NCBI GenBank assembly: GCA_045837725.1
Contig: JBEWZL010000152.1
Location: 434,001 to 498,000 of the forward strand
Length of the DNA: 64,000 bases
Origin: Vermamoeba vermiformis
Lineage: Eukaryota
Direction of reading: 5' to 3'
The notes under the pieces are model-generated. The model saw only the letters and a list, made by a program, of their open reading frames with translations. It searched no databases and was not told the origin of the DNA. Position numbers and translations under genes: made by a program. Below, piece by piece: positions 10,802 through 46,886 of the stretch (its first letter is position 1; each line of letters opens with the position of its first letter).

Positions 10802-13800
10802 TTACAAAAGGTTCACATGCAATATCTGTTCTGCACGCTCTTTCAGTCTTTCATCAAGCAGCACTGAGTCTAGTTTTGGGGCTAGAGCCAAGTGATCAAT
10901 TGTCTTTTCCGTCAAGGCCACGCAATTGAGCAGCGAGATGTACTCTAAGCATATGCTCTGCTGCACCAGCTCTTTGATGAGTGAATCGTGCACTTGCATA
11001 CATCCATCCAGGGTGACTTTGCTAAGTCGCGGACAATTTGCAATAATTTGACGCAAAGACTCTTCAGTGACCTGTGTGCACGCAGTGACATTGACGTCCT
11101 CAATATTCGTGCAGTGTTTGAGAGGCGAGAGGTCAGTGATGCGCGTGCAGTGCGAGATATCGATGATGCGCAGTGCAGTGAGCTGTTGCAGTGCATTGAG
11201 GGTGGACACGTGACTGCACGAGCGCATGACCCACGACTGCAACTGCGGACAGTGCGCACAGATGTACGCAATGGACTCGTCTGCAGGGCATCAGTACGCG
11301 CACAACACTCGCTGTCAGTCTTGCACTTACCAGTGATGGGCAGGTCTTCAAGCTCGAGCACACTGAGGCTCGCGAGATTGGCCACGAACAGCGCCAACAG
11401 CTCATCTAATGCACGTCAGTCACTGCATGCATGTGGTGACACATTCAGCCCTTACCTGTCACGTGTGCAGTCTGCTTCAGGCGCAGTGAGCGCAGTTCGG
11501 TGCAGTTCTGTGCAAACTGAGCCACGAGTGCGCGATTGAGCAGCGTGGAGTGCGAGAGATCGAGCTGCGTCAAGTAGGGGCAGTGCGTGCTCAAGAACTC
11601 GAGCGAGGCACGCTGTCGCATCCAGTGCCGGTCCGTGCAGAGAATGTCGTAGCAGCGCTGCAAGAGGTTGCGGTACTGCTCAAAGTAGACGCTGTTGGTG
11701 TCCGTCTCGAGCGCGGCACAACGCTCAAACAGATCAGCGACCACACTCTTGATCTCGCCCAAGTGCTTGATCGATTGGTACTTGAGCACGGCACGCGTCA
11801 GCAGCTTGAAGTCGATGGGCTGCGCGCGATAGGCGTGCTGTTTGAGTGCGGCAGCGTAGGCCAAGATGATCTCTTCGTTGTCGGGATTGGCCTTGACGGA
11901 CTTGTCAAACTTGTACATGGAGAGGTCGAACAGCCGCTGTTGTGCAAAGGCATTGCTCTGTTGAAAGGACTGCAAATGCAACAGATTGGCCTCTGCAAAT
12001 GTCACCAGAGGCATGGGGCGCGATTTGAGCATGATCTTCTGCACATCGGGCAACACAAAGGTCAGATCGTGCTCGCTCTGTTGCAGCACGCGCTTGACAT
12101 CGCTGGTGAGCTTGATGCCACTCAGCTCTAGACTGCATTAGTGCGCTGCTGACACGTGTCACACTTACCTTCAATGCGCTCGAACACTTGCAGCCAGCCC
12201 ATGGACTTGAGCTTGTCTAGCGGTCAGAGTGAGCAAACAAGATTTTCACTGAACAGAATGGTGTCACGTGATCACTTACTCTTGATCGGGCCCAACACCT
12301 GCAAATCTTCGTCTATTTGCAGCAGCGGATCATTGGGTCGTGCGAGAGGTTCCACGAGCAGCTTGACATCTCCGAGCACGTGATTGGTGTTGTTCGTGTC
12401 ACGTGCCTCGCTGCCACTCTCCTCCTCTTTGGGTCGCACTACAAATCCCCCCTCCTCGCTCAATGTGCGCACACGTGCCGAGCAGAACACCCCCGTGGAG
12501 CCACACTCGCAGTAGTGCGGGGAGGTGATGCCCCGAAGTGGTGAAATTTCGTGATTTTTGTGACACTTGCGCGCACAGACCTCGCACACGACTTGATTCT
12601 TGACAAGCTGACAGGTGAAGCACTGGTACCACAGCTGTTTGGTGCCCGCTGCCCCCGTGGCTTTGAAGGTGCAGATGTCATTGGCCACAGCCGCTGCGAT
12701 CTTGTCCACGCACTCCTCGTGCTCCTGCAACAGCTCCTCGTCGCTCGGGAACTCTTCGAACTGCATCTCCAATCGCGCACGTAGCTCGCTCCAGAACAGC
12801 GCACACTGCGCACGCGCAGCACCGTGTCCGAGCAGCTGATTGAAGCACTGGACCACGACCTCGTGATAGGGCTGCAGTCCCCACGCCTTCAACTGCTTCT
12901 TGGTCTCGCGCAGCATGTGTCGCAAGTGATTCTTGACGCCACGTGCCACCATCTCAATCATGATCACGTTCTTGAGATACGAGGACTGACAGTGACGGCG
13001 CAGCACCGCCAAGTAGCGCACATTGATGCCCTCGCGGTGTATCAGATTCGTCAGCTCGTGGCGAATGCTCTTGCGGAACAACATGTCCAGCGTCTTGGCG
13101 AACTGCGGAATTAATGTGCCGCGCAAATAATCCGTCGCTTCGGAGATTTCGAGCTGATGTGCAGTGCGATCGACTTCGTGCATGTCAAATTTGGGAGAGA
13201 ACGCGTCGGGGGAGAGCGCGTGCTTGTAACGCTTCATGAACTCGGGTCTGAACTGCTGGTACAAATAGCTCTCTTTGTAGCTGCAGCGGGGGTCAGTGCG
13301 CGTCCGTGCTATCGTGCAGTACTCACCGTGCATCGGGCGTGGTTGGGGGCATCAAGCGCGCAAAGTCTACAATAGTATATCGTGCCGTTAATACCCGTCA
13401 CGTGTCACATATACCGCACGCATACCAAGGGTGTAGAAGCGACCATCGCGTCCCACATGCGTCTCAATGTCGCACGGATAGGGCAGTGTCTTGGCCAGCT
13501 CCACATCGACACCAGCCTTGTGCTTCTTGAGCTTGAGTCGCTTGGCCACGCGCTTCATCAGATGGGCCACGCGCTCGTGTGACTTGTACACCGTCTGTCC
13601 GCCATCGCACGAGCCGTACACGATGGTGTGGCGCGAGATGGGCAATATGGAGAGTGCGACGAGTCTGAATCCGAGGTAGTTGACGAGTGCGATCAGTGGC
13701 ACGCGCAGTCCGATGGGCTGGCCGTAGTTGTAGAACGCAATCAGCGAGCGCATCTCGTGTCCCGCAGCCTTCATGGCGTACTCGTCGCCGCTGTAGATGC

Positions 13801-14926
13801 CCTTCCAGTCCACGGCGAACTTGAACAAGATGCCGTTGTAGATGTACTTCTCGCCGCCTGCGTGTCCACCGAGCTCCGAGACGGGCTTGATGGTCTTGTA
13901 CTTGTAGGGCAGGAACACCTCGCTGATGATGATCTTGCCGAACACTTGGGCCGTGCGCTCAAAGTTCTGCGCCACATCGATGATCTTCTCGTAGCGTGCA
14001 ATCTGCTGCGCCACGCTGTGTTGCGGCATGTCCAGCGCACTCTGAAACAGTTCGTTCCAGTCGCGTCGTTCACCGCGCTCCTCTTTGACTTTCTTGGACT
14101 TGTGCACGACATCCAACACGCGGCCCTCCAGCTCGTTCAATCTCTTCTCGCGCTGATCACGTTCACCCGTGTCGTTGATGCGCGACACTTCTCGGCGCAG
14201 TGTTCGGAGCAGTTCCGAGGACAGCTCGACGAGTCGCTTGTTGTGCATCTGCAGCTTCTGATAGGCAGAGAGCTCACTGCGCGCAGGGGCGAGTGACGAG
14301 GAGCCGCGTCGTGCCTTGCGCTCTTCAGCACTGCGCGCGCGTTCATCACTCGAGCTCTGTGGAGTGTAGCTGGCACTGCTCGACGCACTCGACTGACTGC
14401 TGTGCGCGCTACTCACAAAGGTCTGCGAGTAGATGTCGCGCGGTGAGGGCGTGGTGCGACCACTGCGCGAAGTGTCGTCATCGAGCTGGTGCTTGTACTG
14501 CGAGGCATTGAGGGATTGAATGCGCAGTCGCAAGTCCCGCAGATCAGGCTGCACGCGATAGGGTGAGGTAGCGCGCTCCTTTTTGTCAGTGTACGCAGAG
14601 TACGGCGGGGCAGGTGAAACTGTTTGGGGCGTGGAGGTCGTGGTGGTCGAATAAAAGTCACTGCTGTTGCTGTCAGTATCGTCGCGGTGATTGATGTTGT
14701 GCGAATATAAATCTGAATCCTCTTCTGGATCAAAAGCCACGGAGGCCCGTAAGACATCATTCAGATCTTCATTCTCAATTTCATCGTCTTCTCGGTGGTC
14801 GTAATAGTTTGACGCTTGGTCACTTTGTGTGTCCTCTAAATCATCAGCATTTCTAACAATATGTGAATATAAATCGTCTGAATGATTTGAATTGGAGCTC
14901 GAAGTTGTTTTGTACACATTGCTCAT
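10802..14926 (-). CDS. Clu-domain protein with UBR-type zinc finger and C-terminal leucine-rich repeats
   Basis: GGHAGGEKYIYNGILFKFA...YAMKAAGHEMRSL...DIETHVGRDGRFY and IHREGINVRYL (Clu-like). CTFKATG...QLWYQCFTC...VCEVCARKCHKNH...HYCECG (UBR box). LxxLDLSH, IIDISHCTRITD and VTLDGCMQVHD (LRR-CC). Confidence 0.75.
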
Positions 14927-15068
14927 CGTTGTCTTCTTGCATCCATGAAAATACTAGGCGAATAAAAAGACAACGAGAACAAACTGCTTGATAGTCTGTG
15001 GTATTTGTATATCGTTGCAGGACATAGAATTGAAAGTTTTTTGTTGACACTCAAAGAAATTTCACTCG

Positions 15069-30698: not shown

Positions 30699-33652
30699 AT
30701 GGAAGTAAGTCACCGTTGCTCAATTATGACCGGCTAGATGCTGAATTTATATTAATTGACACTTATTCAGCCCCAACAACCAGCAAAATCTGAAATTGAT
30801 AACGGATTCGAGCAGTCATCCCAAGTGCTCATGGTAAGTAATTGCCATGAATTGAAAATTAAAGTTGAATGACTGCAGGTGTCAAATTTTTATTTTTCGT
30901 CGCGGATCGAGCAGTCATTGAATAAATTATTCATGATTCGGTTATGGTCAATTCAAATCACTCCCGTCGGACTATTTGATAGTCACCTAGACAAGACTAC
31001 ACCACCTGGTTTGAACTCTAAACTAATGATTCGACCAGCACGAGGATGTCTGTTTTTACTGCAACAAGAAAGATCAAGAACTCGTCTACTGCTCGTTCTG
31101 TCCAAAGTCTTATCATGCGCACTGCTTGCCCCCTGGTACTAAAATCACCACACCCCGTTGGTAAGTTTTCATCTTGTTATTTCGCAAGCATTGTTTCGAC
31201 CCGGAGTAATTATTCCCAATTTCGCGGAACGAATCTCGCTGCGGAACTGCGTCACTCGCACCAACCCAAAGAGAGGCGAGCAATGCCTCATCTGTTCTTG
31301 GGTTTCTCTTTAAATTCTGCTCGATTGCATATATACCGCTCACGTGCAAACATCTGAAATCACGTGCCAATCAATTCTACTCTGGGAAATCTCCCAAGCG
31401 TGCGTTGCTATTTTCGGCAACAATCGCGCTTACCTAATACGAAAATACTAACACGCGTTTGTTGTAACTAGGGGCTGTCCTTCACACAAATGCATGATCT
31501 GCGGTGCAGCCACATCCAAGAGTCGCGGCAAGATCTACCGTTGTGTGCTTTGCCCCTCCGCTTTCTGCTTGTAAGTTTCACAACTCATTATACTCGGATT
31601 TCAGTGCGGATGTTCCGCTGCATCTAAAACCATTGCGGCGCAGTGTGGCGATGTTTATACAGCTAGTTCGGCAATCTCTGTCATCGCTGCGAGAGAATTG
31701 CTAAATTAGTCAAATTATCTGCGTTAAATTCATTTGTTTAGCGCTCTAGTTATCTGTGATCGCGTTTATTATGATCTGTTCTCCCAATCAGCTTTGATTT
31801 CATGCCATTAAATGATCATTGAATCAAGCTTGGTTTGTGGATCGAGATCTCACTCATTCATTAACGCATGCACAATGATAATGAGCCAGCTTAAAAATTC
31901 CGAATTTAAGCATTGATTTAGATCGAATTTTAGAAGATTAAATAGCAACTGTTGTATAGCAGCTGTTTTTTAATCATTGCTGGATCCTGGCGAATAGAAT
32001 TTAATTAGCTTGTATTACAGCACCCACTTGCCTGAAGAAAGCGAAGTATTGCCGAACAATCCTTACAACTTTATGGGCTACAAAACTACTAGCTTCTTGT
32101 TCATTAAATGCAAGCCCTGTTTGGAGAAGCATCCAGAGCTGCGGGCTAAATCCACCGTAAGTGTGACCAAATCACATTCCAATCGGGACTGGCCTCATGT
32201 TCCATGTTAATACAGCCCGACAAGCGCCGCAGAGATGGCGAGGACGGATTTTCTAGCGATGAAGACGGCAAAGCTAACGACAAGTATAAACGCCGCAAAA
32301 TTGTCAAGATCAGCGAAGAAGACATGGCCACGGTGCCAGTACCGCGCCCAACACTGATCAAGACTGAAGGTACTCGCACTAAGCCCGACATTCAATTAGT
32401 GGAAGAAATCAAGCAGATCATCAACACTCGCGATCTGTTGCAAAAAGATATTGCCGATGACTTGCATGTGAGGTACGGATCCGCACCATAGTTTGTTTGC
32501 AATTCAATTCATGCAATGACGAGTAACTCCCCTATTTCTCAACGAATTACTGCACTTTTGGGGTTCAATTATAAATTATTTTCTTTTTTCACGTGCATCC
32601 AATGTGACACGCGTCACACATAAAATCTTTCAATTTTGCAAGCCCCGAAATTACGTCTTTGCTTTTCGATCTACGACAATAATTGCAGCACGTACTAATG
32701 CGTATTATCTTGCAGTCAAAGTATTATCAGTCAATACCTCAACAATCAAGCGCGCAAAAACGGATGGGACGCCCTCGAAGCCAAGCTGCGGCTGTGGACT
32801 GAACGCGTGCACAAGCGCGGGGATGAGAAGCGTGCCCCCACCACCAACACCGCTGCTGTGACCCCTGCACGCAGCGAGTCCAACACGAGCGATCAGTACA
32901 ATCGTCAAGAGGAGCACAAGGATGAGCGATGGCGCAATGACAACACGCGCCACACATCGATGCACAACACGAGCAGCAACACGCCACAGAACAGCAGCAA
33001 CGATCAGCAGCGCAGTTATTGGGACTCATACACACCGGTCAAGAACGACGGCAAGAAGAGCGCGTCATTCACGAATTACAGCGCGGGACCAGCCATGTAC
33101 GGCATGTACAGCAACGAGGGTCACATGATGATGAATGGCCACGCTCCGTCACCACTCGAACAGTCCTATGCCATGCACCAACAGTTCTTCAAGCCGGCAG
33201 CACTGACGGGACATCTGAATGGCAATTCAAGCACCAACACGTCCAACAACAGTCCTGGCAATTCATCGCCTGCCACGACACCTGCATCGAATGCCACTGC
33301 TGCGAACAACACACCCTCTATATTTAACTCGCCTAATGTACAGTTGCCGCCACTTGTCACGCACGGCAATCCCTATGAATACGCAGCCTACCCTTCACCG
33401 CACATGTTCCGACAACCATTCCCCCCGCAAATGAATTATCCCATGCAGCCTGTCAGTGGCTATGCATACCTCGCACAAGGCTTCACACCCATGCCCGCGT
33501 ATCCCATCCCATCACCGCAGTCCAATTTCCTTGCCCCTCCTATTGGCACCACTCCAGCTCACTTTGGGCGTCACGAAGAATACTTTAACAACGCCAATGC
33601 TAATGCGAACAATAGCAGCAATGCGACCGCTGCACAACAAACCTCAAAATAA
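30699..33652 (+). CDS. PHD + C5HCH-like zinc finger / Cro-lambda-like HTH protein, paralogue 1 (start tentative)
   Basis: Spliced exons give HEDVCFYCNKKDQELVYCSFCPKSYHAHCLPPGTKITTPRW|GCPSHKCMICGAATSKSRGKIYRCVLCPSAFC|THLP...FLFIKCKPC, then PDIQLVEEIKQIINTRDLLQKDIADDLHVSQSIISQYLNNQARKNGWDALEAKLRLW and an N/P/Y-rich tail. Confidence 0.75.
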
Positions 33653-33729
33653 TCTTATTCTATGTATTTTTTTATGTAAATTAACTTGCGATGTTTTATT
33701 AACCCGAATCACGTCTAGTTCTATTGTGT

Positions 33730-36700
33730 CTATTCGCAGTTAGTACGTGCAATATCTTCGTTGCGGAGTCGATTCGTGAAACACGTCACGTTTAAGTCAT
33801 TGCTGAATTGTTTCACGCAGTTGAGTGCCGCACTCTTCTCAGCGTGTTTGACTGTTGGTCCAGTGCCGAGTCCGAGACACAAATGTTCAAAGTAAATGCA
33901 GCAGATCACATCATCTTTCAAGTCACCGAGCTCTGGCAGCACTGGTTCAGCCAAAGCGGCAAGGAATGATTGGTCAATTTGATCGGCGGCCACTCGCTGT
34001 TCTAGCCAGTTAGTTCAATGTAATTGATGGCTCATGAAGCACTTACGCGGTACTGCAGTTTGAGCAGTGTATTGCCAGTCTTGTTCATCAGCAGCTGCAC
34101 CAAATCATTCTTCGGATCCACTTCGCTGACTGGCGGCAATTGACTCAACAGCTGTTCATGAATCATGCCACCACCAATGTCCCAACAAGCGTGACACGTG
34201 TCAAGTTGTCTCAGCCCACTGTCCACATAACGTGCCCCAATGAAAGCCGAGTACAGATCAGCCCACATTTGCGCGTGTTCAGGCACTGTGTAACACTCAC
34301 TCGATGCCTCGCCAGTGCTGTGCCACTGCGACTTCATCCACGCCAAGAACTGCGGACGAGTGCGAGGATTGAACTGCTCACCGAATGATTGGAACTCTTC
34401 CATTGCCATCAAATCTGCAGCACGCATGTTGAAGTTGAACAACACATTGCCGCCTTCAGATGTGTGTGGCGCGAGATTGAGTACATTGCGTGCTAGGTGT
34501 CCAAGCATATTCGGCAGCAGATAGGCTGCGCGGATGACATGATGCATTTCTGCAAGTGCGATTAATTTGTGACTATAAGTACTAACAAGGTACCTTCAAC
34601 ACTTCTCGTTCGACCGATGGAGACAAGAGGGAACTCGGTCTTGACGTCACCGTGAAAGAGATGAGCAGTCAACACGAATTTGAGCAGCGAATAGCCCAGC
34701 ACTTTCAGCTTGAGATAGTCCATGCGTCCTAACTTGCCTTGCGCCTCTTCATAGCCCATCGGATGCGTGGCAGCAGGACGAATGAACATTGACGGGTGCG
34801 TGAGACATTGCACCAAGACATTGCGATTGTTGAACTGCGTCAACAAAGGCTGCAAATTCGATTCCTGTGCTGGCGTCAGGGGCAGTGCGTCTGACAGAGT
34901 GAGCTATGAGAAGCATTGAACGATCGAAGTGACTTACCGAACTGGTCGTTGAATGGCGGGGCAGTGAGGTGGTCGAATGAGGTCTTGAGCTGTTCATTGA
35001 ACAAATAACGATTGCAAAATGAGAGGCAGGACTCGAGGCCTTGGTCGAGGTACAGCGCACCTGATGACGTGATTAATAAGACTACAACACGTCAATATAT
35101 GTGTACCAATAAAGGCCTCCAACAGGTCAGCTGACACTTTGGATCTGTCAGCGGCGAGGGCGGACACTTTCTTCGGCACAATCAAATAGCTCGACAACTT
35201 CAACTGTTCGCTGATGTCGCTCAGTCGTTTGTTGCTGACAATCTGCGCGCGCTTGTTGACCAGCTGATCTTCGCTGAACTTGGGGAACTTGTGCACCAGA
35301 CAAGCGGTGACGAGGAAGTCGAGCACTGCGTCCCCGAGATGTTCGAGCAGCTGATAGTTGTCTGGCTCTACCTCGCACTGTTCACTGAAGGCCTGGGAAG
35401 TAAACACCTAGAATACACAGTATTGTTAGGGAGGATTGAGGACCAACACAAATACGAACTCTTTTCTTCAATTTGGGAGAGTTGATGACATAGCCAAGGG
35501 ATTCTTCGAGCACGGCAATCTTTCTGAATGCTTGACGCGTGTCATTGATGTGAATGAGCAGTGCAGGGAACAGCTTGGACAATGCACGAATTTCAGCAGT
35601 CAGTCCAAATATCGAGCAGAGTTCGGGCACTAAATTGATGTCAGGTTCGGTGCTCGCGATGAACTTGTTCGATTGATCGGTGGCCGTGCGATTGATGCGG
35701 TCAAGTGCTTTGATGCTCACTGCCACGAGGGGCTGCTTCAAGTCTATGATATCGAGACCTTTCTGCTTGAAATAGTCTACGTATTGAATCGTCTCGCCTG
35801 TTGTCGGCTGTTAGTCACCGATCGTTCATTCACACAACTCTTACTTGTATTTTTCGAGAACGACGAGAGCGGAGTCTGCTTGAAATTGACATCGATCACA
35901 ATGTACGAGGTCTTGCTGTAGTCTGCGCGAATGATTCGGCCACTCAGCTCCTTGCGCAAGGACAGTCGAACTGAGTGAAGGACATCGCGCTCAGCGTCAG
36001 TCCAAGGAGCAGTCGTGTCAACACTGGCAATGTCCTGCAATGTGATGGGTTTGTGTTCTGGGCCCAGCGTGTATTGTCGGACGTAATTGTTCAGCATGGC
36101 CAATGCATTGTCATGTGCCATCAAGCTGCTCAGCTTCTCCGTGTCTATCAGCTGGGTTGACTGTTCGAACAGTGGCGTGAAGAGAGTCGCGTCGGGTGAG
36201 GCAAACAGCGACGGATTGTTCTTTGGCGTGCCCTCCAGTGCGTAATCCAGCCACTGCTTGTGAAAGGTTTTCACTATGTGGAATTGTTCCGCGGTCAGTA
36301 TCTACAACAAAATTACCACATTAGGCTAACTGCTCTGAAACCTGATTGGTTCCACTTACCACGCGCTCAATGTACTTGACACGCAGGTCATATTGCGTGA
36401 TCGTGTGTGACAGTGCGGGGATCTTGCCGCGCATGCGATAAGTGCTCCAACACAACTCGTCAGCCGTCAACAACAGAATGGCTTTTGGTCTCGAGCTCCT
36501 GTCGTGATCAGCAAACACGTCCTGGCAGGCATTAGTGCTGCAATAGAGTAAGTAGAATCGTACCATAACCTCGGTTTGATCTAATTCGAGCTGATACACG
36601 TGATATTCACGAGTGAGTTGGTCAGACGGTGCTTCTGCTGCTAGTGTCTGCGGCACCGCTTCTTCAGGAGCAATTGTTGGACGAGTGGGAGAGACGTGGT

Positions 36701-39341
36701 CAGTCTTTTGTTTCTTGGCTGTCATGCCTATCAGTCGATACACTAATGATAGTGGGTCATACCTTTGACGTCAACATGCTCATCATTCGATGCACGGCTG
36801 CGAGCTGTAGCCTTCCATCGTTCAAGCGACACTTCAACTTCACCGCGTTTGAGGGCAATCAGTGCTCCTTTAAACAACGGTATGGCCTGTGCGTCTAAGG
36901 ACGGAAGATTAAAACACAGACACAGTGACGGCTACTGACCTTTCTCAGCAACAATCATCGATCCAACTGGCTTGTCACACGAGGCGCAGATCAATTTGAA
37001 AGGTTTCATCGCTTTTTCTTTCTCGTCTGTCACTTCCCTGGTGCGCAGTGACTTCTCAGGGCCGATGATGCTGTCGCGGTGTTGTTCTCTGAAAACCAAC
37101 GAATGAGTTCGCAGTAAATAGAGATTCAACACGTACCCAATCGTAATGTGAGGATTAACAAAGGCAAGTTGAGTGACTGGACAAATGATTGCGGCACACG
37201 ATTTGCAGTGCACGGTCACATCGTCCACAGACAGTTCTGAGACTGGACTGCCATCAGCTCGGCGTTTAGTGCCTGAAGGTGACACGTTGACAGGAGTTGT
37301 GGGCACCACTTCCATGGAGACTGGTAGTGACACAGCTACGGGCATTGGTCTCTCCACGGGCACGGTGGATTTGACGACAGTGTTGTCTTCAGTGGGAGCG
37401 ATCGATTGCGTGAGTGGAACATTGTGTGCCTGAAAAACAGTCTCAATCGACTTGCACAGAGCCGCACCGAACAACATCTTTTCAGCGATAAATGCATTGA
37501 CCTCAGCAACAATGTTCGTGGTGAGGGCCATGTGTTGCTGTTCAATCAGCTTCAGACTCAAGTCCAGCGCTGCTAACTTCTCCGCGGCCTTTTTGGTGTA
37601 CTGAAACAGCTCGCTGCTGCCAGTCATGGCGGTGCCATCGCCCATGACAAACATTCCCTGGGCCATGAACATCTGTCTGCCGGCCTTGTCTTGCTGCTGT
37701 CTGAATGTGAACAGCGGGGCATTGGTCTTGCTGACGTCGCGCGTGTATTCAGCCACGACTGCTTTGATCGTGCTGGCCTTGCTCTCGTACACATTGGCTT
37801 TGCGCTCAACCACTCGCTGCACCTTGGCGCGCAACTCATCGTCCGGCGAGTAGATGCTGTGCATGTTGCGCATCAAGTAATACTAAGTGGTTCGTTAGTG
37901 GGACCGCATTGATTAGTGGTTAAGTACCTCGTGTTTGGCGGCAAGGAAGCTGCGGTAGAAAGAGCTCGCGTACTTGTCAATGACCGGTGCACCAGAGCGC
38001 AGTGTCTCAATCAATTTGTCCTTGCTGTTGATGCGCTCCCAGCTGCATGACAACGTGGATCAGCACCGCTTTTCGAGCAATGCCTCTGTGTGTTGTTAGT
38101 ACCGTTCAATAATTAAGTACTTGACGTACTCGGGCAAGATGTTCTCGTTCTTGGCTGCCATTTCGCGACACTCAAGTAACTTGCGCAGAATCATGTGCTG
38201 AGAGGTACTCGCATCAGTACTGCCTTATTAATAAGACCGTTCACTACTGACCTGCATCTCAGTGGGCTCAGTGGCTGGATAGAGGTCTTTGAGCTCGTTC
38301 AAACACTTTTTCAGCCAACGAGCTACGCGGTCCTTGACAGTGATGGGCTTGTAGAGTTTGAGCGCGAGTTTGTTGGACTCTGCGTGCACGGCGCTGATGA
38401 CGTGTGCAGTGTGATTGGCGGGCTGAACGAGCTCGTGCAACATCTTGTCGTAGAGTGGCAGCAGATAGTGCGTGTTCATACGTGCATAGTCTGTCATGCC
38501 TGGGGGCCACGCTTCAAAGGGTCTAATGCAGCAGTGAGTACTCGGCAGCACATTGATTGGCTAGCACGTACCTCAAGCGCCAATCAGCGAGTTGATGTGT
38601 CGCATCCATGGTGACGTTCAACTGCGTCAGAAGAGTGTGGCTCAAGTTGGCCTTATTGCCCCCTAATATTGATGTAATGAGAGCTAGTATACAAGAATTT
38701 AAGTACCTTGTACCACGTCTATCAGCTGCAGATCAAAGCAGTTGACTACGAAGAGGTTGAAGTCGCGTTGAAGCCAGCCAATATCGCCATGACACCTAAG
38801 CGAATTATTATGACCAAATTAGAGCGAGTTCGTGGCGAGCTAAGCTTACCCAAAGAAGATCTGGTTTGAGACTAAAATTAGAAATGTCTTAATCCATGAA
38901 ATTAAATCATACCTTGATGATCTTATTGTCAGAAAATATGACAGATAAATATTTGTGCAGGAGAGGCTTCAAGGCGATGGCGTCTACCAGATAATCAGCT
39001 TGACGCGTCGAGATCTGCATTAGGCAGATAAAGCCAATGTAGGAGAATTGACTTGATTCCTACAGAAATAAATTACTAAATTATTATCTTAAATTTTGCG
39101 CCTTATTTTGTACCTCCAAGTCAATGGCGATTTCGCTGTACTGACTCAGATCCGCTGCCATTCTCTGCAGCTCTTCCTCGTTATTAATAAAATAAAAAGG
39201 AACGCTACTTAATTCTTTTAGCGGCTCAAGCGTTGCTGGTGGCTTTGGCAACGCCATGTCCAACGGCGCAGCCTCGACGGATCCTGATAAACTGTCGGTT
39301 AAGTCTTCGAGAAAGCAATGGTTACCTTGAATTGTCTCCAT
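33730..39341 (-). CDS. Dicer-like protein: Rrp6-type exonuclease, HRDC, DUF283/dsRBD-like, RLR-CTD-like Zn domain, platform-PAZ, RNase IIIa, degenerate RNase IIIb, dsRBD
   Basis: Exon-by-exon reading gives EIAIDLE/GFICLMQIST/GDIGWLQRDF/HQLADWRLRP/YARMNTHYLL, LRKLLECREMAAKNEN, KKAAEKLAALDL, CKSC...CASC...IPLFK...RWK, QTPLSSF..YVDYFKQK..KQPLV..LVPELC, YQLLEHLGDAVL/ADLLEAFIGALYLD, YLKLKVLGYSLL/ADLYSAFIGARYVD and DPKNDL..GTGPTVKHAEKSAA. The junction at 38129-38007 is ambiguous. Confidence 0.8.
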
Positions 39342-39470
39342 CGTTAGAGCATTAATTTGGTTGAATACAAAGACATGAAAGCGAAGCAATATCCGATCAC
39401 GTGGTAGGAAATTTCAGGTCGAGCTCAAATCAAGGAGGTTAACCGGAAAGTTTATATATTACAGATGCCA

Positions 39471-42400
39471 TCAATTGGCAAATAGATCATCTAAATATTG
39501 ATCTACAAACGTCAAATTAAACCAATAATCGGTTGTCAGTTCAATTAACGTGTGCGTCGGCTTGACGTTGAATTTCAACAAAAGATGATATTTTGGCGGC
39601 AAAAATATGAAGCCTAACACTTGCGTGGGGACTGCTAACTCTGTCAATGGGGCATTGGGGTCGATCAAATAGGGCTTGAATTTGCTGGCTAGTCTTGCTA
39701 GCACGTGCTCGTGGTTCTTGTTGATGTGTTTCACTGAAATTGCACCGCGAGCACTATCGATTAACGTTATTACTATATTTGGCTAAAGTTCCGCTACTTA
39801 CTCAGTGGACGTCTCGCGCTCATTCCAAAAGTGTTCAAAGAGCACCTGTCGCGCTGTACTTTGCGAGCAAGGCGCGCTGTCAGAGTCAACTGTCACGGGC
39901 AACAACAGATCAGTGAATGACACTGTCAACGCGTCAATGTTGTCCTCGCAGTTGATGCCTCCAGCAATGTTGAAGGTAATCTTAGTGTCAAATGCCGCGG
40001 GAATGGGCAATACAGGCCTGAGATTGACCATCACGCGGTACTTGTACGGGAACTGTTCTTGTTCTAGATCACGTGCCTCGCCCGATGCCAAAATAGGCAA
40101 GTGAAGTGGTTCAATCGAATGATACAACGGCGAGTCAGCAAATGTCATGGTGACACTGTAGATGGTGCGCGGTGTATCTTTGTCAAGTCGAGGTTTGTAT
40201 GTCACAATGAACGGCAGATCCACAGTCACGTGATTGGCTCGATGTGCGACCATTGATTTGTAGGCCCGAATAATGGTTGATTTTAAGTCTGCATTGACTG
40301 CACTGCTTTGAATCTGATCGCCAGTCACGTTGTCCAAGTACACCGTGCAGTTGTGATTGTGTTGCGGTGTTAGTCGATGCAACATGACAAAGTTCTTCGT
40401 GCTCAGTTCATTTGTCTCGCGCACACGATGGAGACTATCCACGCCTGCATACGGATCAATATATGTGTCATGATGCCGACTAGTATAACTTACCTGCTTC
40501 TTGCAAGTCATTAGCCGCACTCGTGGTCAACAAGCCCTTAATTTTGTCGTTGGACAAATGGATCAAGAGCTGGTCGTAGAAATGTGCCCGGTCGCGAATA
40601 TCTGACAAGATGTTAGGACAACCGTTACAACAATTATCATCGTACCTATATCCGAGTAAAAGACTGCCATGAACATCAGCAAGGCATGAAGTGGTTCAAA
40701 AATTGACACGTTGACATGTGTCACGAGCACAGCCTTGCATATTTCGAGCAGTGTGTTGCCAGTGGTCCAATCACCTGTTTTGAGTGTCGAAGTGTAGCGC
40801 AAGAACGAGTGCAATGTCTTCAACAAGTTCACGGGTGATATTTCAGTGTCCAAGCTGATTCGATGCACGAGGTCCAAGTAATTGCCAACACGCGCTACGG
40901 GCAGTGAAACAATCTCTCGTTCAAAGTATTGCAGCAACTTGTGGTGCAGAGGGGTGTGTTCTAATGATTGCAACAATTTAATCACGCGACCAACAAAACT
41001 CGGATTGCGTTCAATGGCTTGGGAGAGGTACCTATCAGACACATTAGCTCATCAATCACTCTTATCGATGCCCGTACTTATAACTCTGATCAAACAGTTC
41101 GTTGGGGAATGTAGCTAAGTAATCTCGCACCAGCCTGAACACTATCAGCACCAAGTAGTCGTCTTTCTTGTGGTAAATGAACTCTTGAAAGCACACGAAT
41201 AGATTCAGAATGTTTCTATGATGGGTTATTTAGCATTCGAATATGGATTAGAGAATACGTACTTGATGAGGTGCGTATTGGGGTCTTTTGGTTTGAAGCA
41301 ATGGCGCAATATTTCAATCTTGGCCTCGCGCACTTGCAACACATCGAATATGTTGGGCACGAAGGATTGGTGGTTGGGGAACAAGTAGTCGTGATGTGAC
41401 ACTTGCAGCACTGACTCGTAGGGGTAGTAGGTGAGCCATTCGAGGGCCAGTACTCGCTCAGCTGTAGCGCTGTCAGAGTGCGTTAGTCATATTACGGGAG
41501 TACTGGCACGTACTTTATAGTGTTGTTCACGTGGTGGATCAGACTGACGATGAACTGTTCAAATTGCGATTGAAATATGTCGTAGAACACCGCTGAATAG
41601 ATCAACATCATGTGTTTGAGCAGTGAATTGAATGACAGGCCTAGTCGCGACAATTGATGTCTAATGTCATCGTTAGTATAGTACTCACAGATGCATTGCT
41701 GACAGCTACGTACTTGAACAGATCACGTGACAGATCAGTCAGTTGAATGAGATAAATGATGGAATATGACAGCTCGATCATTGCCCACGGTGATAAAATA
41801 GTGCTGATTTCAACAAAGTATTGGATCGCTTTTTTGACCTCCTGTAATCGATAATAGTGTTAAATCATACAATCAATTCGAACAAAATTTTACGTACAGC
41901 GTGCAGTGGCTCCAACAACAACTGTTTTGGCTGACACGGCACTTCAATCACGTGCCGTTCAAAAGCTTGGTACTTGACAATCGCGGAGAGACTGAACGGA
42001 TTGAGTTCAGTGCGTGAAGTGAACAATGAGAACGATGCAAAGCTGTTCGCCGTCAAGCCGAGCAGTTGTGACAAGAACGTTGCGAGCTCGTTCACTGAAG
42101 CAGCTGAGCCCTTTGCAGAATTCACTGAAATCTCTTCCACGACCTGCACGCACGGTCAGCACGAGAATAGTGATTGAACCATTGAACACATCAGACCTGA
42201 ATCAGAGAGCGCAACACAGTGACAGCGAGCAAGTGATATGATTGGTGGATGTGAGAGCGCTCTTGTTGGGCCAGCACAAATAAATTGCCTATTTTGGCAA
42301 CGAGCAGTCCTGGGTACTGCTGCTCCAATTCTTTCAAACTCTCACAGGCCTGTCAGAACACAATTAGAAGTCAGTCGCAAGAGCTGATGTGCACGCACTG

Positions 42401-43114: not shown

Positions 43115-44751
43115 TTATTGCAATCCTGACTGCCTATTACCGGGTAGGTTGCTATTAAAGGGCTGATTTGGGTCTCCTCGGAAGTAGCGTTGGTGCAACA
43201 AGTGTGGATTTACTTGAAAACCATCCATCATACTTAAACTAGGGGATGGGGTATATCCGTAGCCACTGACTGCAGCTTGATAATTCGTCTGCGTGTAATA
43301 GCCAGCCTTTTCATTGGGTTCAGGGCCGTAAGCGTCGAAAGGTTCCATTTTTGCGCTCTGCTGATAGACATTCGCCACTTGCGGAGTGTAACCAGCCATG
43401 TAGTAGCCTGGAGCAGGGGCCGTGTAGTTGGCCTCTATCTTGCCTGGTCCACTTTCATAAGTGACGGATGTCATGTTGGTGGTTTGTTTAATGACCGCCT
43501 GATGAACATGTGACTGCGCGACAGTGTGTTGAATGGCCTGTGCAGCGCGCACTGTGCTGTGTGCCACTGGATGTGAGTCAGGTACCGAGCTTGGGCTATC
43601 GGCAGACTTGCTTGGTACCTCTGCTGACCCAGATGCGCCATTCTGCAGCCATTCAGACAGCTTGGTCTCGAGGTCCTTCCAGCCGTTAGACCGCGACTTA
43701 TTGTTGAAGTAGGAGCTGATCGTACTGGGGCTAGCAGAAAAGAGCGTTAGTTTCCACTGTGAATTTCGAAAGATTCTAATTTCAAACTTTAATCTATTGA
43801 AAGTGAGATCGAATGTACCTGACTTCGAGTATATCTGCGAGGTCTTTTTGATGTAATTGCTGAGTAACGAGAGCATCTTTAATTCTCTTTATCAACTGCG
43901 GATCGGGTGTCTCGCAGATGTCTGCGCGCTTCTTCTTTCTGATCGGTGCAGCTTGTACGTGGAGTGGAGGTGCGCTCGGACTCAATGACGATATTATTTG
44001 ATTCATCATCTCAACGCTAATGGCTGCTTTCTTTTCTTTGGTGTTCATCGGGAGTTTTGTAGTGGTTGAAGGTTGATTGGCCAGTTTGGGCCTTTTCTTC
44101 TCGCGCTCTAGTGATGATTCTTCGTCATATTCTTCTTTTTTGCGCTTGTTGCTTGCAGGGATCATATTCTGAGATAAAGAAGAAGTGTTACGCTACATCC
44201 AGCTCAAATCGTGACAGACCTCACGTACCTCGTCAAGACAATAGGCGCAAGCGAATAGGTTGTCATCGCCGCCATTAGAGTAACGCGCAGATGGCGTGTG
44301 CAAATGGATCCTGGTTGGGATAATTAATCGAAATCTCGCATAAATGTCTATTTTAAAGTCTCTTTCCGCCTCATGACAACGATCAATCAAATTAATAACT
44401 GCGGGAACTATACGATCGAATGAATTGTTCGCTTACGCGCAGTATATCGATCCGCAAGAAAAGCACCGCTTTTGAGGTTCTTGAGGCACCGTGTTTTGAG
44501 CCGCGCAGATCCGACAGCAAGATGGCCAGTGTTGAGGACAAAACCTGGGATCAAAATTAGTAAATATTGTCAAATTTCTAATTTGTTCAGTGTAAGATTT
44601 TTTTATCGTGCACTTACCAACGATTAGGAATGAACGGTACGAAATTCCAGCCCAAGCATTGGATGTGGTACACGGCATTGCATGCTGCGCACCCTAACAT
44701 TGATACTCCAATTTTTCCAGCATTGTGGCAACGCGTACATCTATAATCCAT
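43115..44751 (-). CDS. PHD zinc finger / Cro-lambda-like HTH protein, paralogue 2 (most divergent)
   Basis: MDYRCTRCHNAGKIGVSMLGCAACNAVYHIQCLGWNFVPFIPNRW|FCPQHWPSCCRIC...CFSCGSIYC|IH...FACAYC, then PDPQLIKRIKDALVTQQLHQKDLADILEVS|PSTISSYFNNKSRSNGWKDLETKLSEWL. Confidence 0.7.
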
Positions 44752-45154: not shown

Positions 45155-46886
45155 TTAGTTGGGGAAGACCAACGTCGGTACTGAATTGTTGTAGCTTCCT
45201 AGTTTAAATAAATCGCGGTCGGGAGCGCAATCCAAAGCCGAAAACGGTTCAAAGTCGAAATTAGATTGATAATTAGTTGTGTTGGTGTGTCCTCGTGGCA
45301 CGTAGTATTTGTTGATTAATTGAGGTTGATGGCTTGAATAAGAAGTTGACATCAGGGGTTGTAGCTGCGTAAATTTCTCTTCGTACTGATGCATCATATT
45401 GTTCTCTTCGTAAACAGGCTGCGCGTTGTATTGCATAAAGTACTCGTCGCCGAATTGTGAAGACAAAGGACGCACTGAGACGACTTCTTTTTGTTTGTGC
45501 AAGTACTCGCCGTTAGTTGTAGCGTGATAGTGTTCAGCTTGTTGCTTGAGTTCGTTCAATTCTTCAGCAAAATTGTCAAACTCGCGCGCCGGCGCTGAGG
45601 ATTGATTGGCGACAGAAGTGGAGCTGTGGTAGACCACATCGACAAGAGTTTCTTCTTTCTTGATGTGTTGGATGGGGGCTGAAGAGTGCGAGTGCGGCTG
45701 TTGTTTGCAGCACACTTCAGGAGCAGCGACTGCACCGTGATGAGCCTTGAACGCATCGAGCCAAGCTTTGAGTTTGAGTTCGAGTGAGGCCCAACCGTTG
45801 CTGCGAGTGCCACCATTCATGTACTGCGAGAGAATTCCTTGACTGACATCGATGTCTTGTGCCAAATCTTTTTGAAGTTTGTTGACCACTTTGAGCGCCT
45901 CGCGGACTTGTTCGACGAGCTGGTCGTTGGGACAAGTTCTGACGTATTGCAAGATTCTGGTTTCTTTGTCGGCAGCAATGATCTTTCTTCGTTTGCGAGG
46001 AGGTTCTTGGCAAGAGTCGTCATCTTCAGCGCTCGAGTGTTCAACTTGTGCTTCTTGCGCGATTTCTTGTTCAACCTCGGAGGGATCACGGCAGATCTTG
46101 CAAACAATAAACACAAAGCTAGTTGGAAGGTAGCCAATGGCCTCGTAAGGGTTGCCCTTCAAGATAGCACTGTGTGTTGGTACGTGGGCACTAAATTGAC
46201 ACAAGTTTAGCGAATATTCGTCCGGACAACACAAACACAGAAAAAATATTCCGAGACTTCCAGAAATAGGCCACTGGATCGTGTTAAAACTTGAACTTAC
46301 AAGCAATAAGCGCCCGGGCAGTGTACGCAACGGTAGATTTTGCCTCTGCTTTTTGACGTAGCAGCTCCGCAGACCTGACACTTGTGTGACGGGCAACCCC
46401 TAAGCCCAGATTAGAAAATGAATAAAGATATCAATCGATTGACGAAACTACGACGGAATGTTCTCCGCAGTGGTTAGGAAATTCAGTTTTTAGAAGGCTG
46501 TTTTCAAAAAGATTCTAGCCGGAATTTGGGTCATTTTGATCACATCCGCGTGCAAGGAGAAATACCACTTGAATTTGTAAAGCGAGGAATGTACGCGCGA
46601 GCTTACCATCGAGGCTTGGACAACTTGGTACCAGGTGGTAAGCAGTCGGGGTGGTACGCCTTTGGACAGAAGCTGCAGTAAATGAGACCGCGGTCGTCTT
46701 TACCGCAAGTGAAGCAATTTAGCTCGTGCTGCACGAAATGAATATTAGTACTTGTAATTTAGGCATTAGAAGAAGCGAACTATCTGCGAGACAAGTATAA
46801 AAGTGTTGAGATCAGATTTGAAGTGTCGAACGTTCGCGTAGCAAACAGTTCTCAGACTCGACGAGCATACAACTTACTTGCATCAT
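45155..46886 (-). CDS. PHD + C5HCH-like zinc finger / Cro-lambda-like HTH protein, paralogue 3
   Basis: MMQ|HELNCFTCGKDDRGLIYCSFCPKAYHPDCLPPGTKLSKPRW|GCPSHKCQVCGAATSKSRGKIYRCVHCPGAYC|AHVP...FVFIVCKIC, then PNDQLVEQVREALKVVNKLQKDLAQDIDVSQGILSQYMNGGTRSNGWASLELKLKAWL. Confidence 0.75.

What the first reader, a model, noticed from the sequence alone, without database searches (positions are those of the whole stretch)
33730..39341. Dicer-like gene with an Rrp6-type exonuclease-HRDC module in place of the helicase
Seen: the minus-strand exons join through canonical GT-AG introns in this order: DEDDy exonuclease (IAIDLE, GFICLMQIST, DIGWLQRDF, LADWRLRP, YARMNTHYLL), HRDC-like helices, DUF283/dsRBD-like (KKAAEKLAALDL), CxxC/CxxC Zn domain, platform (LTAEQFHIVKTFH), PAZ (TPLSSF, YVDYF, QPLV, LVPELC), two RNase III domains, dsRBD. 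No helicase motifs are present. Established: canonical Dicers are helicase-DUF283-platform-PAZ-RNaseIII x2-dsRBD, and Rrp6/EXOSC10 is normally a separate exosome nuclease. Inference: a chimeric small-RNA enzyme that couples RNA 3'-end binding or trimming to dsRNA cleavage. I do not know of a described Dicer with this architecture. This is the best candidate for a new system in the window.
Basis: partly seen in the sequence, partly recalled or inferred. Interest (0 to 1): 0.95.

Follow-up and report, generated by a model that had tools for sequence, protein, structure and literature searches.

The report
Dicer-like gene with Rrp6-type exonuclease head
A microbial eukaryote carries what is most likely one gene joining an Rrp6-type RNA exonuclease to a helicase-less Dicer, a combination I could not find described, although this assembly breaks the reading frame with one extra base and no transcript yet spans the joint.

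Summary
I modelled 19 exons and 18 GT-AG introns of 44-58 nt. Spliced contigs of a close relative confirm six of the introns. The exonuclease pieces match only Rrp6/EXOSC10 among solved structures. PAZ and RNase IIIa are clear, and a 50%-identical orthologue shows a weak DUF283 (Dicer_dimer) match just after the joint. The upstream neighbour is AP5B1, so there is no helicase.

As assembled, the exons do not form one open frame. The spliced length is 3n+1, and translation stops after 327 residues inside the HRDC-like exon. The cause is one extra C at 38045. A second NCBI contig carries four exon ORFs identical to the window's, and a JGI relative is 85% identical. Both read this spot in frame. 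The next exon is conserved from its first residue and lacks the candidate start Met in the distant orthologue.

I rate a single fused gene at about 0.7. No transcript covers the joint. Both nucleases are partly degenerate: the exonuclease has Asn at its last acidic position, and RNase IIIb has lost three of four acidic residues. The proposed cut-and-trim function is inference.

The parts
33730..39341 (-). Whole modelled gene: ATG 39341-39339, stop TAG 33732-33730. It has 19 exons and 18 GT-AG introns of 44-58 nt, and gives 1577 aa if the extra base at 38045 is skipped.
   Evidence: Coordinate-based model. Introns 34550-34593, 35061-35106, 38523-38571 and 38663-38706 appear as joints in spliced X1 contigs. 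Introns 34891-34937 and 38796-38849 are supported by X1 loose ends.
38252..39341 (-). Exons 1-6 (aa 1-279): Rrp6-type DEDD-Y 3'-5' exonuclease core. There is no PMC2NT, and the last acidic residue is Asn.
   Evidence: Pfam DNA_pol_A_exo1. PDB hits for three pieces: 13 of 13 (best 2.5e-8), 11 of 11 and 13 of 14 are Rrp6/EXOSC10. The alignment puts N opposite the second D of the YARDD / YARAD motif.
38850..38860 (-). 11-nt micro-exon (exon 3) inside exonuclease motif II.
   Evidence: The frame requires it. The X1 loose end at 38796 carries its last 12 letters.
37928..38197 (-). Exons 7-8 (aa 280-354): HRDC-like helical region. This is the joint between the exonuclease and Dicer parts.
   Evidence: Its position after the exonuclease is as in Rrp6. 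No Pfam or PDB match for the pieces. Exon 8 is conserved in P0012 (98%) and P0013 (85%) up to the donor site and then diverges.
38045..38045 (-). Extra C directly after the ATG at 38048-38046. It shifts the frame.
   Evidence: One search gives the position. P0012 and P0013 both begin M-S-W-E-R, which the window cannot encode unless this base is skipped. Reading ATGC as one step gives P0014, which has that sequence.
38007..38009 (-). Stop codon reached in the as-assembled frame (327-aa product).
37883..37927 (-). Intron 8 (45 nt, GTACTT...TAG, CTAAC-type branch site). It links the HRDC-like exon to the DUF283 exon in phase 0.
   Evidence: Protein conservation stops at the donor (P0013) and starts at the acceptor (P0002, P0005).
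37137..37882 (-). Exon 9 (aa 355-603): DUF283/dsRBD-like module, a linker and the first CxxC. It contains the in-frame Met at 37873-37871.
   Evidence: Four homologues found among 1.84 billion representatives. Dicer_dimer E 2.8e-4 (21.3 bits, cut-off 23.7) and dsrm E 0.0037 in orthologue P0002. The AF2 model shows a helix, three strands and a helix at low confidence.
36763..37088 (-). Exons 10-11 (aa 603-697): second CxxC and the rest of the zinc module.
   Evidence: Weak Yippee-Mis18 / RIG-I_C-RD matches. Both CxxC pairs are conserved in P0001-P0005, P0008 and P0009.
35845..36718 (-). Exons 12-13 (aa 697-969): platform-like region and the N-terminal half of PAZ.
   Evidence: PAZ E 2.9e-4 on 35777-36301. 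'Platform' rests on position and recalled pattern only.
35460..35797 (-). Exon 14 (aa 969-1081): C-terminal half of PAZ and the connector.
   Evidence: Pfam PAZ 31.7 bits, above the cut-off. The best PDB matches are PIWI PAZ domains at 4.5e-6, and no Dicer appears among 11 hits.
34938..35407 (-). Exons 15-16 (aa 1082-1223): RNase IIIa with an intact E..GD and D..E signature.
   Evidence: Pfam 1.2e-16. PDB: Drosha 9.3e-18, DCL3 1.5e-10, Giardia Dicer 2.9e-10. The intron is confirmed by X1.
34047..34890 (-). Exons 17-18 (aa 1223-1489): divergent RNase IIIb lacking 3 of 4 acidic residues, plus the start of the C-terminal dsRBD.
   Evidence: Internal alignment to IIIa scores 75 against 32.2 +/- 5.5 for 200 shuffles (maximum 49.5). 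Atlas first hit 0.91, RNase III clusters. No Pfam or PDB hit.
33730..33996 (-). Exon 19 (aa 1490-1577 plus stop): C-terminal dsRBD.
   Evidence: Pfam dsrm E 0.013, 16.5 bits, below the cut-off of 23.

Best explanation
This is one gene for a protein of about 1577 aa. An Rrp6-family exonuclease core and an HRDC-like region occupy the N-terminal position where canonical Dicers carry their helicase. They are followed by a DUF283-like dsRBD, a CxxC/CxxC zinc module, a platform-like region, PAZ, an intact RNase IIIa, a catalytically degenerate RNase IIIb and a dsRBD. The frame break in this window is one extra C at 38045, either an assembly error or a strain-specific change, and not the natural state of the gene.

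Likely mechanism (inferred). PAZ and the dsRBDs hold a dsRNA or hairpin end. The single complete RNase III centre cuts one strand at a measured distance. The exonuclease module then either trims the 3' end that this creates or, if the Asn substitution has inactivated it, only holds that end. What is shown: domain identities, splicing of six introns, and conservation of the joint exons in relatives. What is inferred: one transcript, catalytic activity, and any coupling of the two nucleases.
For: - The 18 GT-AG introns of 44-58 nt give a spliced length of 3n+1. All 1262 codons after 38045 are open in one frame.
- P0012 comes from an 8468-bp NCBI contig. P0012 begins MSWER, which needs ATG directly followed by AGC, that is, no C at 38045. 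JGI relative P0013 (85% identical) begins the same way.
- Read that way, the exon is continuous with the exonuclease frame through the best splice sites (GTACGT donor, TACTAAC branch site, CAG acceptor, 44 nt).
- Conservation stops at exon 8's donor and starts at exon 9's first residues. The 50%-identical orthologue P0002 has no Met at the position of the window's candidate start.
- The module after the joint gives Dicer_dimer E 2.8e-4 in P0002, which is the domain that follows the helicase in canonical Dicers.
- The exonuclease pieces match Rrp6/EXOSC10 almost exclusively in the PDB.
- AP5B1 ends 129 nt upstream of the ATG, so there is no helicase exon.
- Spliced X1 contigs cover both the exonuclease and the Dicer halves.
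Against: - No read or contig covers 37830-38395 in any of the four runs laid, so a single transcript is not shown.
- As assembled, the frame stops after 327 aa, and an in-frame ATG at 37873 could start a separate Dicer protein. This genome does place same-strand genes only about 130 nt apart (AP5B1 stop 39471, exonuclease ATG 39341).
- P0012 and P0013 are gene calls that begin at the ATG. Continuity upstream of it in those records is inferred, not seen.
- No tool recognised an HRDC.
- Homologues of the joint region were found only in close relatives: 4 hits in 1.84 billion and 2 hits. No full-length annotated protein with this architecture was found.
- The Asn in the exonuclease and the loss of three acidic residues in RNase IIIb argue against a simple cut-and-trim enzyme.
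Confidence: 0.7

Rival explanations
1. These are two neighbouring genes that were never fused. A short Rrp6-like exonuclease gene ends near 38100-38007. A helicase-less Dicer gene starts at the ATG at 38048 (in relatives) or at 37873.
For: As assembled, the first ORF stops at 38009-38007, and an ATG follows at 37873. The relatives' gene calls start at the ATG that corresponds to 38048. Same-strand genes here can lie only about 130 nt apart. No transcript spans the joint.
Against: In the relatives' frame there is no stop between the exonuclease exons and exon 8, if their upstream sequence resembles the window's. A canonical 45-nt intron would then sit between the genes or in a very short UTR. 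The HRDC-like unit would be split between two proteins. P0002 lacks the Met at the 37873 position, and its conservation runs back to the acceptor site.
Confidence: 0.12
2. The fusion is real in the lineage, but this genome's copy truly carries the frameshift. The gene is then either newly split into an exonuclease fragment and an internally initiated Dicer, or it is decaying.
For: The extra C is in the assembled sequence and does not sit in a homopolymer run. Both nuclease modules have lost catalytic residues.
Against: Four other exon ORFs are letter-identical between the window and the 8468-bp NCBI contig that lacks the shift. There are no further stops or shifts in the remaining 1262 codons. 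The degenerate RNase IIIb keeps its non-catalytic signature residues.
Confidence: 0.2
3. The protein is one chain, but the exonuclease head is a non-catalytic RNA 3'-end binding module. The enzyme is a single-site nickase or a binding scaffold, not a trimming Dicer.
For: N replaces the last acidic residue of the DEDD-Y set in the alignment to EXOSC10 and Rrp6. RNase IIIb aligns K, Y and S where IIIa has E, D and E.
Against: The other three acidic residues and the Tyr of the exonuclease are kept (and the translation). An Asn can still ligate a metal ion. No activity data exist either way, and I could not check whether the Asn is conserved in relatives.
Confidence: 0.3

Closest known systems
Canonical Dicer / DCL (helicase-DUF283-platform-PAZ-RNase IIIa-RNase IIIb-dsRBD; e.g. 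PDB 5zak, 7vg2, 9kby listed)
   Same: Tandem RNase III domains, a PAZ upstream of them, a DUF283-like dsRBD before that, and a C-terminal dsRBD, all in the same order.
   Different: There is no helicase; an Rrp6-type exonuclease and an HRDC-like region sit in its place. An extra CxxC/CxxC zinc module is present. RNase IIIb lacks 3 of 4 acidic residues. By sequence the PAZ is nearest to PIWI PAZ domains.
Helicase-less Dicers: Giardia Dicer (2ffl), oomycete DCL2, Dictyostelium, Hydra and Nematostella Dicers (passages of PMC4791657 and PMC5056781 read)
   Same: Dicer-type RNase III enzymes without a DExD/H helicase. They show that the N-terminal module of Dicer is evolutionarily exchangeable.
   Different: None of those passages reports an exonuclease in the vacant position. 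According to PMC5056781, Dictyostelium Dicers also lack PAZ.
Rrp6 / EXOSC10 (nuclear exosome 3'-5' exoribonuclease; PDB 2hbj, 3saf, 4nlb)
   Same: The exonuclease exons match only this family among solved structures. The exonuclease is followed by a helical region where Rrp6 has its HRDC.
   Different: There is no PMC2NT and no C-terminal exosome-binding tail. The last acidic catalytic residue is Asn. The domain is fused to a Dicer body.
Stand-alone 3'-5' exonucleases of small-RNA pathways (Nibbler, MUT-7, QIP, and Rrp6 with MUT68). These are recalled. For MUT-7 I saw only the search listing of PMC8700014.
   Same: They couple RNase III or Argonaute products to 3'-end trimming or strand removal.
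   Different: They are separate polypeptides, and most come from other DEDD subfamilies.
Naegleria Dicer-like with one conserved dead RNase III domain (earlier scan note e1-635202)
   Same: A Dicer-type tandem RNase III protein with only one complete catalytic centre.
   Different: I did not check it.

Membership tests
Dicer (class 4 RNase III) | Two RNase III domains in tandem in one chain | tested here: met
   IIIa: Pfam 1.2e-16, PDB 9.3e-18. IIIb: internal alignment scores 75 against 32.2 +/- 5.5 for shuffles, and Atlas gives 0.91 to RNase III clusters. Pfam and the PDB do not detect IIIb directly.
Dicer (class 4 RNase III) | Both RNase III centres carry the four acidic residues, giving double-strand cleavage | tested here: not met
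   IIIa keeps E, D, D and E. IIIb aligns K, Y, D and S at those positions.
Dicer (class 4 RNase III) | PAZ domain N-terminal to the RNase III pair | tested here: met
   Pfam PAZ 31.7 bits against a cut-off of 28.8, on 35382-35810. The second half scores 21.2 bits.
Dicer (class 4 RNase III) | DUF283 / Dicer dimerisation domain | tested here: inconclusive
   The window's exon 9 has no hit. Orthologue P0002 gives Dicer_dimer at 21.3 bits, below the 23.7 cut-off. The AF2 topology fits but mean pLDDT is 41.
Dicer (class 4 RNase III) | N-terminal DExD/H (RIG-I-like) helicase | tested here: not met
   No helicase family on any of 16 exon ORFs at E<=1. The upstream gene is AP5B1.
Rrp6 / EXOSC10 | DEDD-Y exonuclease domain homologous to Rrp6 | tested here: met
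   PDB hits are Rrp6/EXOSC10 in 13 of 13, 11 of 11 and 13 of 14 cases. Pfam DNA_pol_A_exo1 scores 23.8 bits against 23.6.
Rrp6 / EXOSC10 | Complete D-E-D-D plus Y catalytic set | tested here: not met
   N aligns with the last D of the human and yeast sequences. That this D is catalytic is recalled, not tested.
Rrp6 / EXOSC10 | HRDC domain after the exonuclease | tested here: inconclusive
   Exons 7-8 are helical-looking and in the right place. Pfam and the PDB found nothing for the separate pieces or for P0014. The spliced domain could not be submitted to the search tools.
Rrp6 / EXOSC10 | N-terminal PMC2NT domain (Rrp47 binding) and C-terminal exosome-binding region | tested here: not met
   Only about 50 residues precede the exonuclease, and they have no Pfam match. 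AP5B1 ends 129 nt upstream. The C-terminus is the Dicer body.
RIG-I-like receptor C-terminal domain / Yippee-type zinc fold | Two CxxC pairs and a profile match above the cut-off | tested here: inconclusive
   Both CxxC pairs are conserved in relatives. Yippee-Mis18 scores 20.7 bits (cut-off 26.6) and RIG-I_C-RD 14.5 bits (cut-off 25.6). The domain is split over three exons, so I could not score it whole.

The most novel reading that the evidence does not exclude
In an unstudied lineage of compact-genome protists, Dicer's helicase has been replaced by an Rrp6-derived exonuclease/HRDC head and an RLR-CTD-like zinc domain. The result is a single-chain enzyme with one endonuclease centre and one exonuclease centre. 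It would cut one strand of a dsRNA or hairpin and then trim or degrade from the new 3' end. That would be a small-RNA maturation or dsRNA-decay route built into one polypeptide, without an ATP-driven helicase.
Probability: 0.3. Interest if true: 0.8.

Novelty: new variant of a known kind. Interest (0 to 1): 0.62.

Why it matters
Dicer's N-terminal helicase is thought to select and feed substrates. Known helicase-less Dicers simply lack it or have passed it to an RdRP.

A natural Dicer with an Rrp6-type exonuclease in that position would show that 3'-end processing can be wired directly to dicing. In known systems that processing is done by separate enzymes such as Nibbler, MUT-7, QIP or the exosome.

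It would also provide a compact natural test case. One could ask what a Dicer with a single live RNase III centre produces, and whether the exonuclease head is a trimmer or only an end-binding module.

If the frame break turns out to be real, the locus instead records a very recent fission or decay of such a gene.

Tried and rejected
- RNA evidence. The look-up of sequencing runs listed no RNA holder. I laid X1, X6, X7 and X8, and no read or contig lay on 37830-38395, so the joint remains untested.
- Homologue searches with 'longer' lengths, using exon 9 and exon 6, found nothing.
- Two metagenome-contig scans and one genome-contig scan found no relative, so no relative's DNA could be read.
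- HRDC. Pfam at E<=10 and the PDB at E<=10 found nothing for exon 7's ORF, either frame of exon 8, or the read-through P0014.
- AF2 of exon 9 with 6 sequences gave mean pLDDT 41.3. I did not send it to fold search because the model is too weak.
- The Atlas search on exon 9 residues 4-165 gave only sub-0.9 BAR-type hits, which I treat as noise.
- Reading the in-frame TGA at about 38062-38060 as sense. Rejected because the relatives' frame shows that stretch is read in the other frame.
- An 87-nt intron 38129-38043 that restores the frame as assembled. Possible but disfavoured. It would be longer than all 18 modelled introns, it skips the first acceptor after a TACTAAC branch site, and it removes sequence that is coding in the relatives' frame.
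- Literature. Five searches found no paper describing an exonuclease-Dicer fusion. One further search was rejected for term format.
- Earlier scan notes hold nothing on this genome or sequence.
- I did not use the second structure job, fold search or complex prediction.
- The organism was not identified.

Full report
**What is in the sequence.** The window is eukaryotic, with about 45-50% GC around the locus. Using coordinates only, I built a model with 19 exons and 18 introns. All introns are GT-AG and 44-58 nt long, and several have CTAAC/CTGAT-type branch sites. The ATG is at 39341 and the TAG stop at 33732-33730. One exon is an 11-nt micro-exon (38860-38850).

**Splicing evidence.** I laid four runs on 33500-39600. 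X1 consists of assembled contigs 95-99% identical to the window: 17 were laid, 6 at 99% or more and 11 at 95-99%. They carry spliced joints for introns 34550-34593, 35061-35106, 38523-38571 and 38663-38706. Their loose ends match the exon beyond introns 34891-34937 and 38796-38849, which confirms the micro-exon. In X7, raw RNA reads from a 90-95% relative include four reads with a loose end that translates across the exon 1/exon 2 junction. Both the exonuclease half and the Dicer half are therefore transcribed and spliced in relatives. No run has any depth on 37988-38395, and X1's nearest contig ends at 37829. The joint itself was not observed.

**Domain identities.** Pfam on 16 exon ORFs gave:
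- DNA_pol_A_exo1: E 4.5e-5 and E 0.044
- PAZ: E 1.7e-7 (above cut-off) and E 2.9e-4
- Ribonuclease_3: E 1.2e-16
- dsrm: E 0.013
- Yippee-Mis18: E 4.8e-4, and RIG-I_C-RD: E 0.041, both on the CxxC exon
- no helicase family

Against all PDB chains, three exonuclease pieces hit Rrp6/EXOSC10 in 13 of 13 (best 2.5e-8), 11 of 11 and 13 of 14 matches. The label 'Rrp6-type' is therefore justified. No WRN, RNase D or polymerase exonuclease reached E<=1 to 10.

RNase IIIa matches Drosha (9.3e-18), plant DCL3/DCL4 and Giardia Dicer. The PAZ halves match PIWI-clade PAZ domains best (4.5e-6), and no Dicer appears among 7 and 11 hits.

The gene directly upstream on the same strand is AP5B1 (AP5B1_C 3.9e-9, AP5B1_middle 5.7e-12). 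It ends at 39471, 129 nt before the ATG. No helicase exon or PMC2NT domain can precede the exonuclease.

**The frame break.** As assembled, the spliced length is 4735 nt (3n+1). Translation through the best splice sites stops after 327 residues, at 38009-38007, inside exon 8. I enumerated all GT-AG paths with up to three introns of 38-130 nt between 38296 and 37882. There are 297 stop-free paths. None uses only introns of 58 nt or less, and all 297 have to remove 38062-38045.

**Why I think the break is not the natural state.**
- A search with the second frame of exon 8 found two proteins. P0012 is 98% identical, and P0013 is 85% identical and from JGI.
- Both begin M-S-W-E-R. The window has a Cys codon before that Ser, which is not a start codon. 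It has an ATG one base out of frame, followed by a C at 38045.
- Reading ATGC as one step reproduces the relatives' sequence and joins the two frames of exon 8 (P0014).
- P0012 comes from a single 8468-bp NCBI contig.
- So another assembly of apparently the same organism, and a more distant relative, read this spot in frame.
- If that one base is skipped, the ORF runs for 1577 codons with no further interruption.

**Evidence that exon 9 is an internal exon.** A full HMMER search of exon 9 against 1.84 billion representatives gave only four hits. All are exon-sized gene calls from genomic contigs of relatives, found in ENA, JGI/IMG contigs of up to 690 kb, and Logan.
- In P0005 and P0007 (about 81% and 76% identical) and in P0002 (about 50% by the search, 54% in the alignment), conservation begins at the first two residues after the acceptor site.
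- P0002 has no Met where the window has the candidate start at 37873.
- P0013's similarity ends at exon 8's donor and then diverges.
- Exons 8 and 9 therefore behave as consecutive coding exons joined by the 45-nt intron 37927-37883.
- P0002 gives Dicer_dimer (DUF283) E 2.8e-4 and dsrm E 0.0037 on this module, both just below cut-off. The window's own AF2 model shows a helix, three strands and a helix, but at mean pLDDT 41.
- Both CxxC pairs of the following zinc module are conserved.

**Catalytic state.**
- Exonuclease: in the alignment to human EXOSC10 and yeast Rrp6, the window has N at the position of the last D of their motif III. The motif II Asp aligns with an Asp of Trypanosoma Rrp6, and the DxE of motif I is present. 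That these are the DEDD-Y catalytic residues is from recall.
- RNase IIIb: Pfam and the PDB do not detect it. The Atlas places it with RNase III clusters at 0.91 with 182 shared features.
- RNase IIIb aligns to the gene's own IIIa with score 75, against 32.2 +/- 5.5 for 200 shuffles (maximum 49.5).
- In that alignment IIIb has K, Y and S where IIIa has E, D and E, and keeps one D.
- The protein thus has one complete RNase III centre.

**Interpretation.** The most economical reading is one gene in which an Rrp6-derived exonuclease and an HRDC-like region stand where Dicer's helicase normally is, directly before a DUF283-like domain. I put this at about 0.7.
- Two never-fused genes: about 0.12. 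This is not excluded, because the genome packs genes only about 130 nt apart and no transcript spans the joint. It would, however, leave the exonuclease gene without a stop in the relatives' frame, split the HRDC-like unit, and place a canonical intron between the genes.
- A real frameshift in this strain: about 0.2. This would mean a recent fission or decay.
- Function is inferred. PAZ and the dsRBDs would bind an RNA end, one strand would be cut by RNase IIIa, and the exonuclease head would trim or merely hold a 3' end.

**Comparison with what is known.** Helicase-less Dicers are established: oomycete DCL2, Dictyostelium, Hydra and Nematostella in passages of PMC4791657, Dictyostelium in PMC5056781, and Giardia 2ffl. 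The same paper documents shuffling of the helicase to RdRPs. Five full-text searches found no paper reporting an exonuclease-Dicer fusion. I could not query InterPro architectures or read supplementary tables. An earlier scan note (e1-635202, unchecked) describes a Naegleria Dicer-like with one dead RNase III domain, so a single live centre has precedent.

**Verdict.** This is a new variant of a known kind. It merits follow-up, but it depends on a transcript across the joint and on re-sequencing of one base.

Noticed in passing
window 32699-33652 (+), 43115-44192 (-), 45155-46399 (-): Three apparently paralogous genes flank the locus. They share a short conserved N-terminal block (an ...NGW..LE.KL..W pattern) followed by long Q/N/S-rich tails. 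Only a weak HTH_3 match (E 0.032) was found, on one of them.
   Followed up: partly
window 39471-42155 (-): AP-5 beta subunit gene (AP5B1_C 3.9e-9, AP5B1_middle 5.7e-12). It ends 129 nt upstream of the exonuclease ATG, which shows how tightly genes are packed here.
   Followed up: partly
window 38850-38860 (-): An 11-nt micro-exon lies inside exonuclease motif II. The reading frame requires it, and a loose end of a spliced X1 contig supports it.
   Followed up: yes
window 37089-37136 (-): A 48-nt GT-AG intron that is in frame and free of stops in this window, so a plain ORF reading keeps it as 16 residues inside the zinc module. The relatives' gene calls end and restart at its borders.
   Followed up: partly
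window 35460-35975 (-): By sequence, the PAZ domain of this Dicer-like gene is closest to PIWI-clade Argonaute PAZ domains (4.5e-6). No Dicer PAZ appears among the PDB hits.
   Followed up: partly
window 12272-14953 (-): A CLU / eIF3-p135 homologue whose downstream ORF also carries a zf-UBR box (E 8.5e-9). I did not check this combination against known CLU proteins.
   Followed up: no
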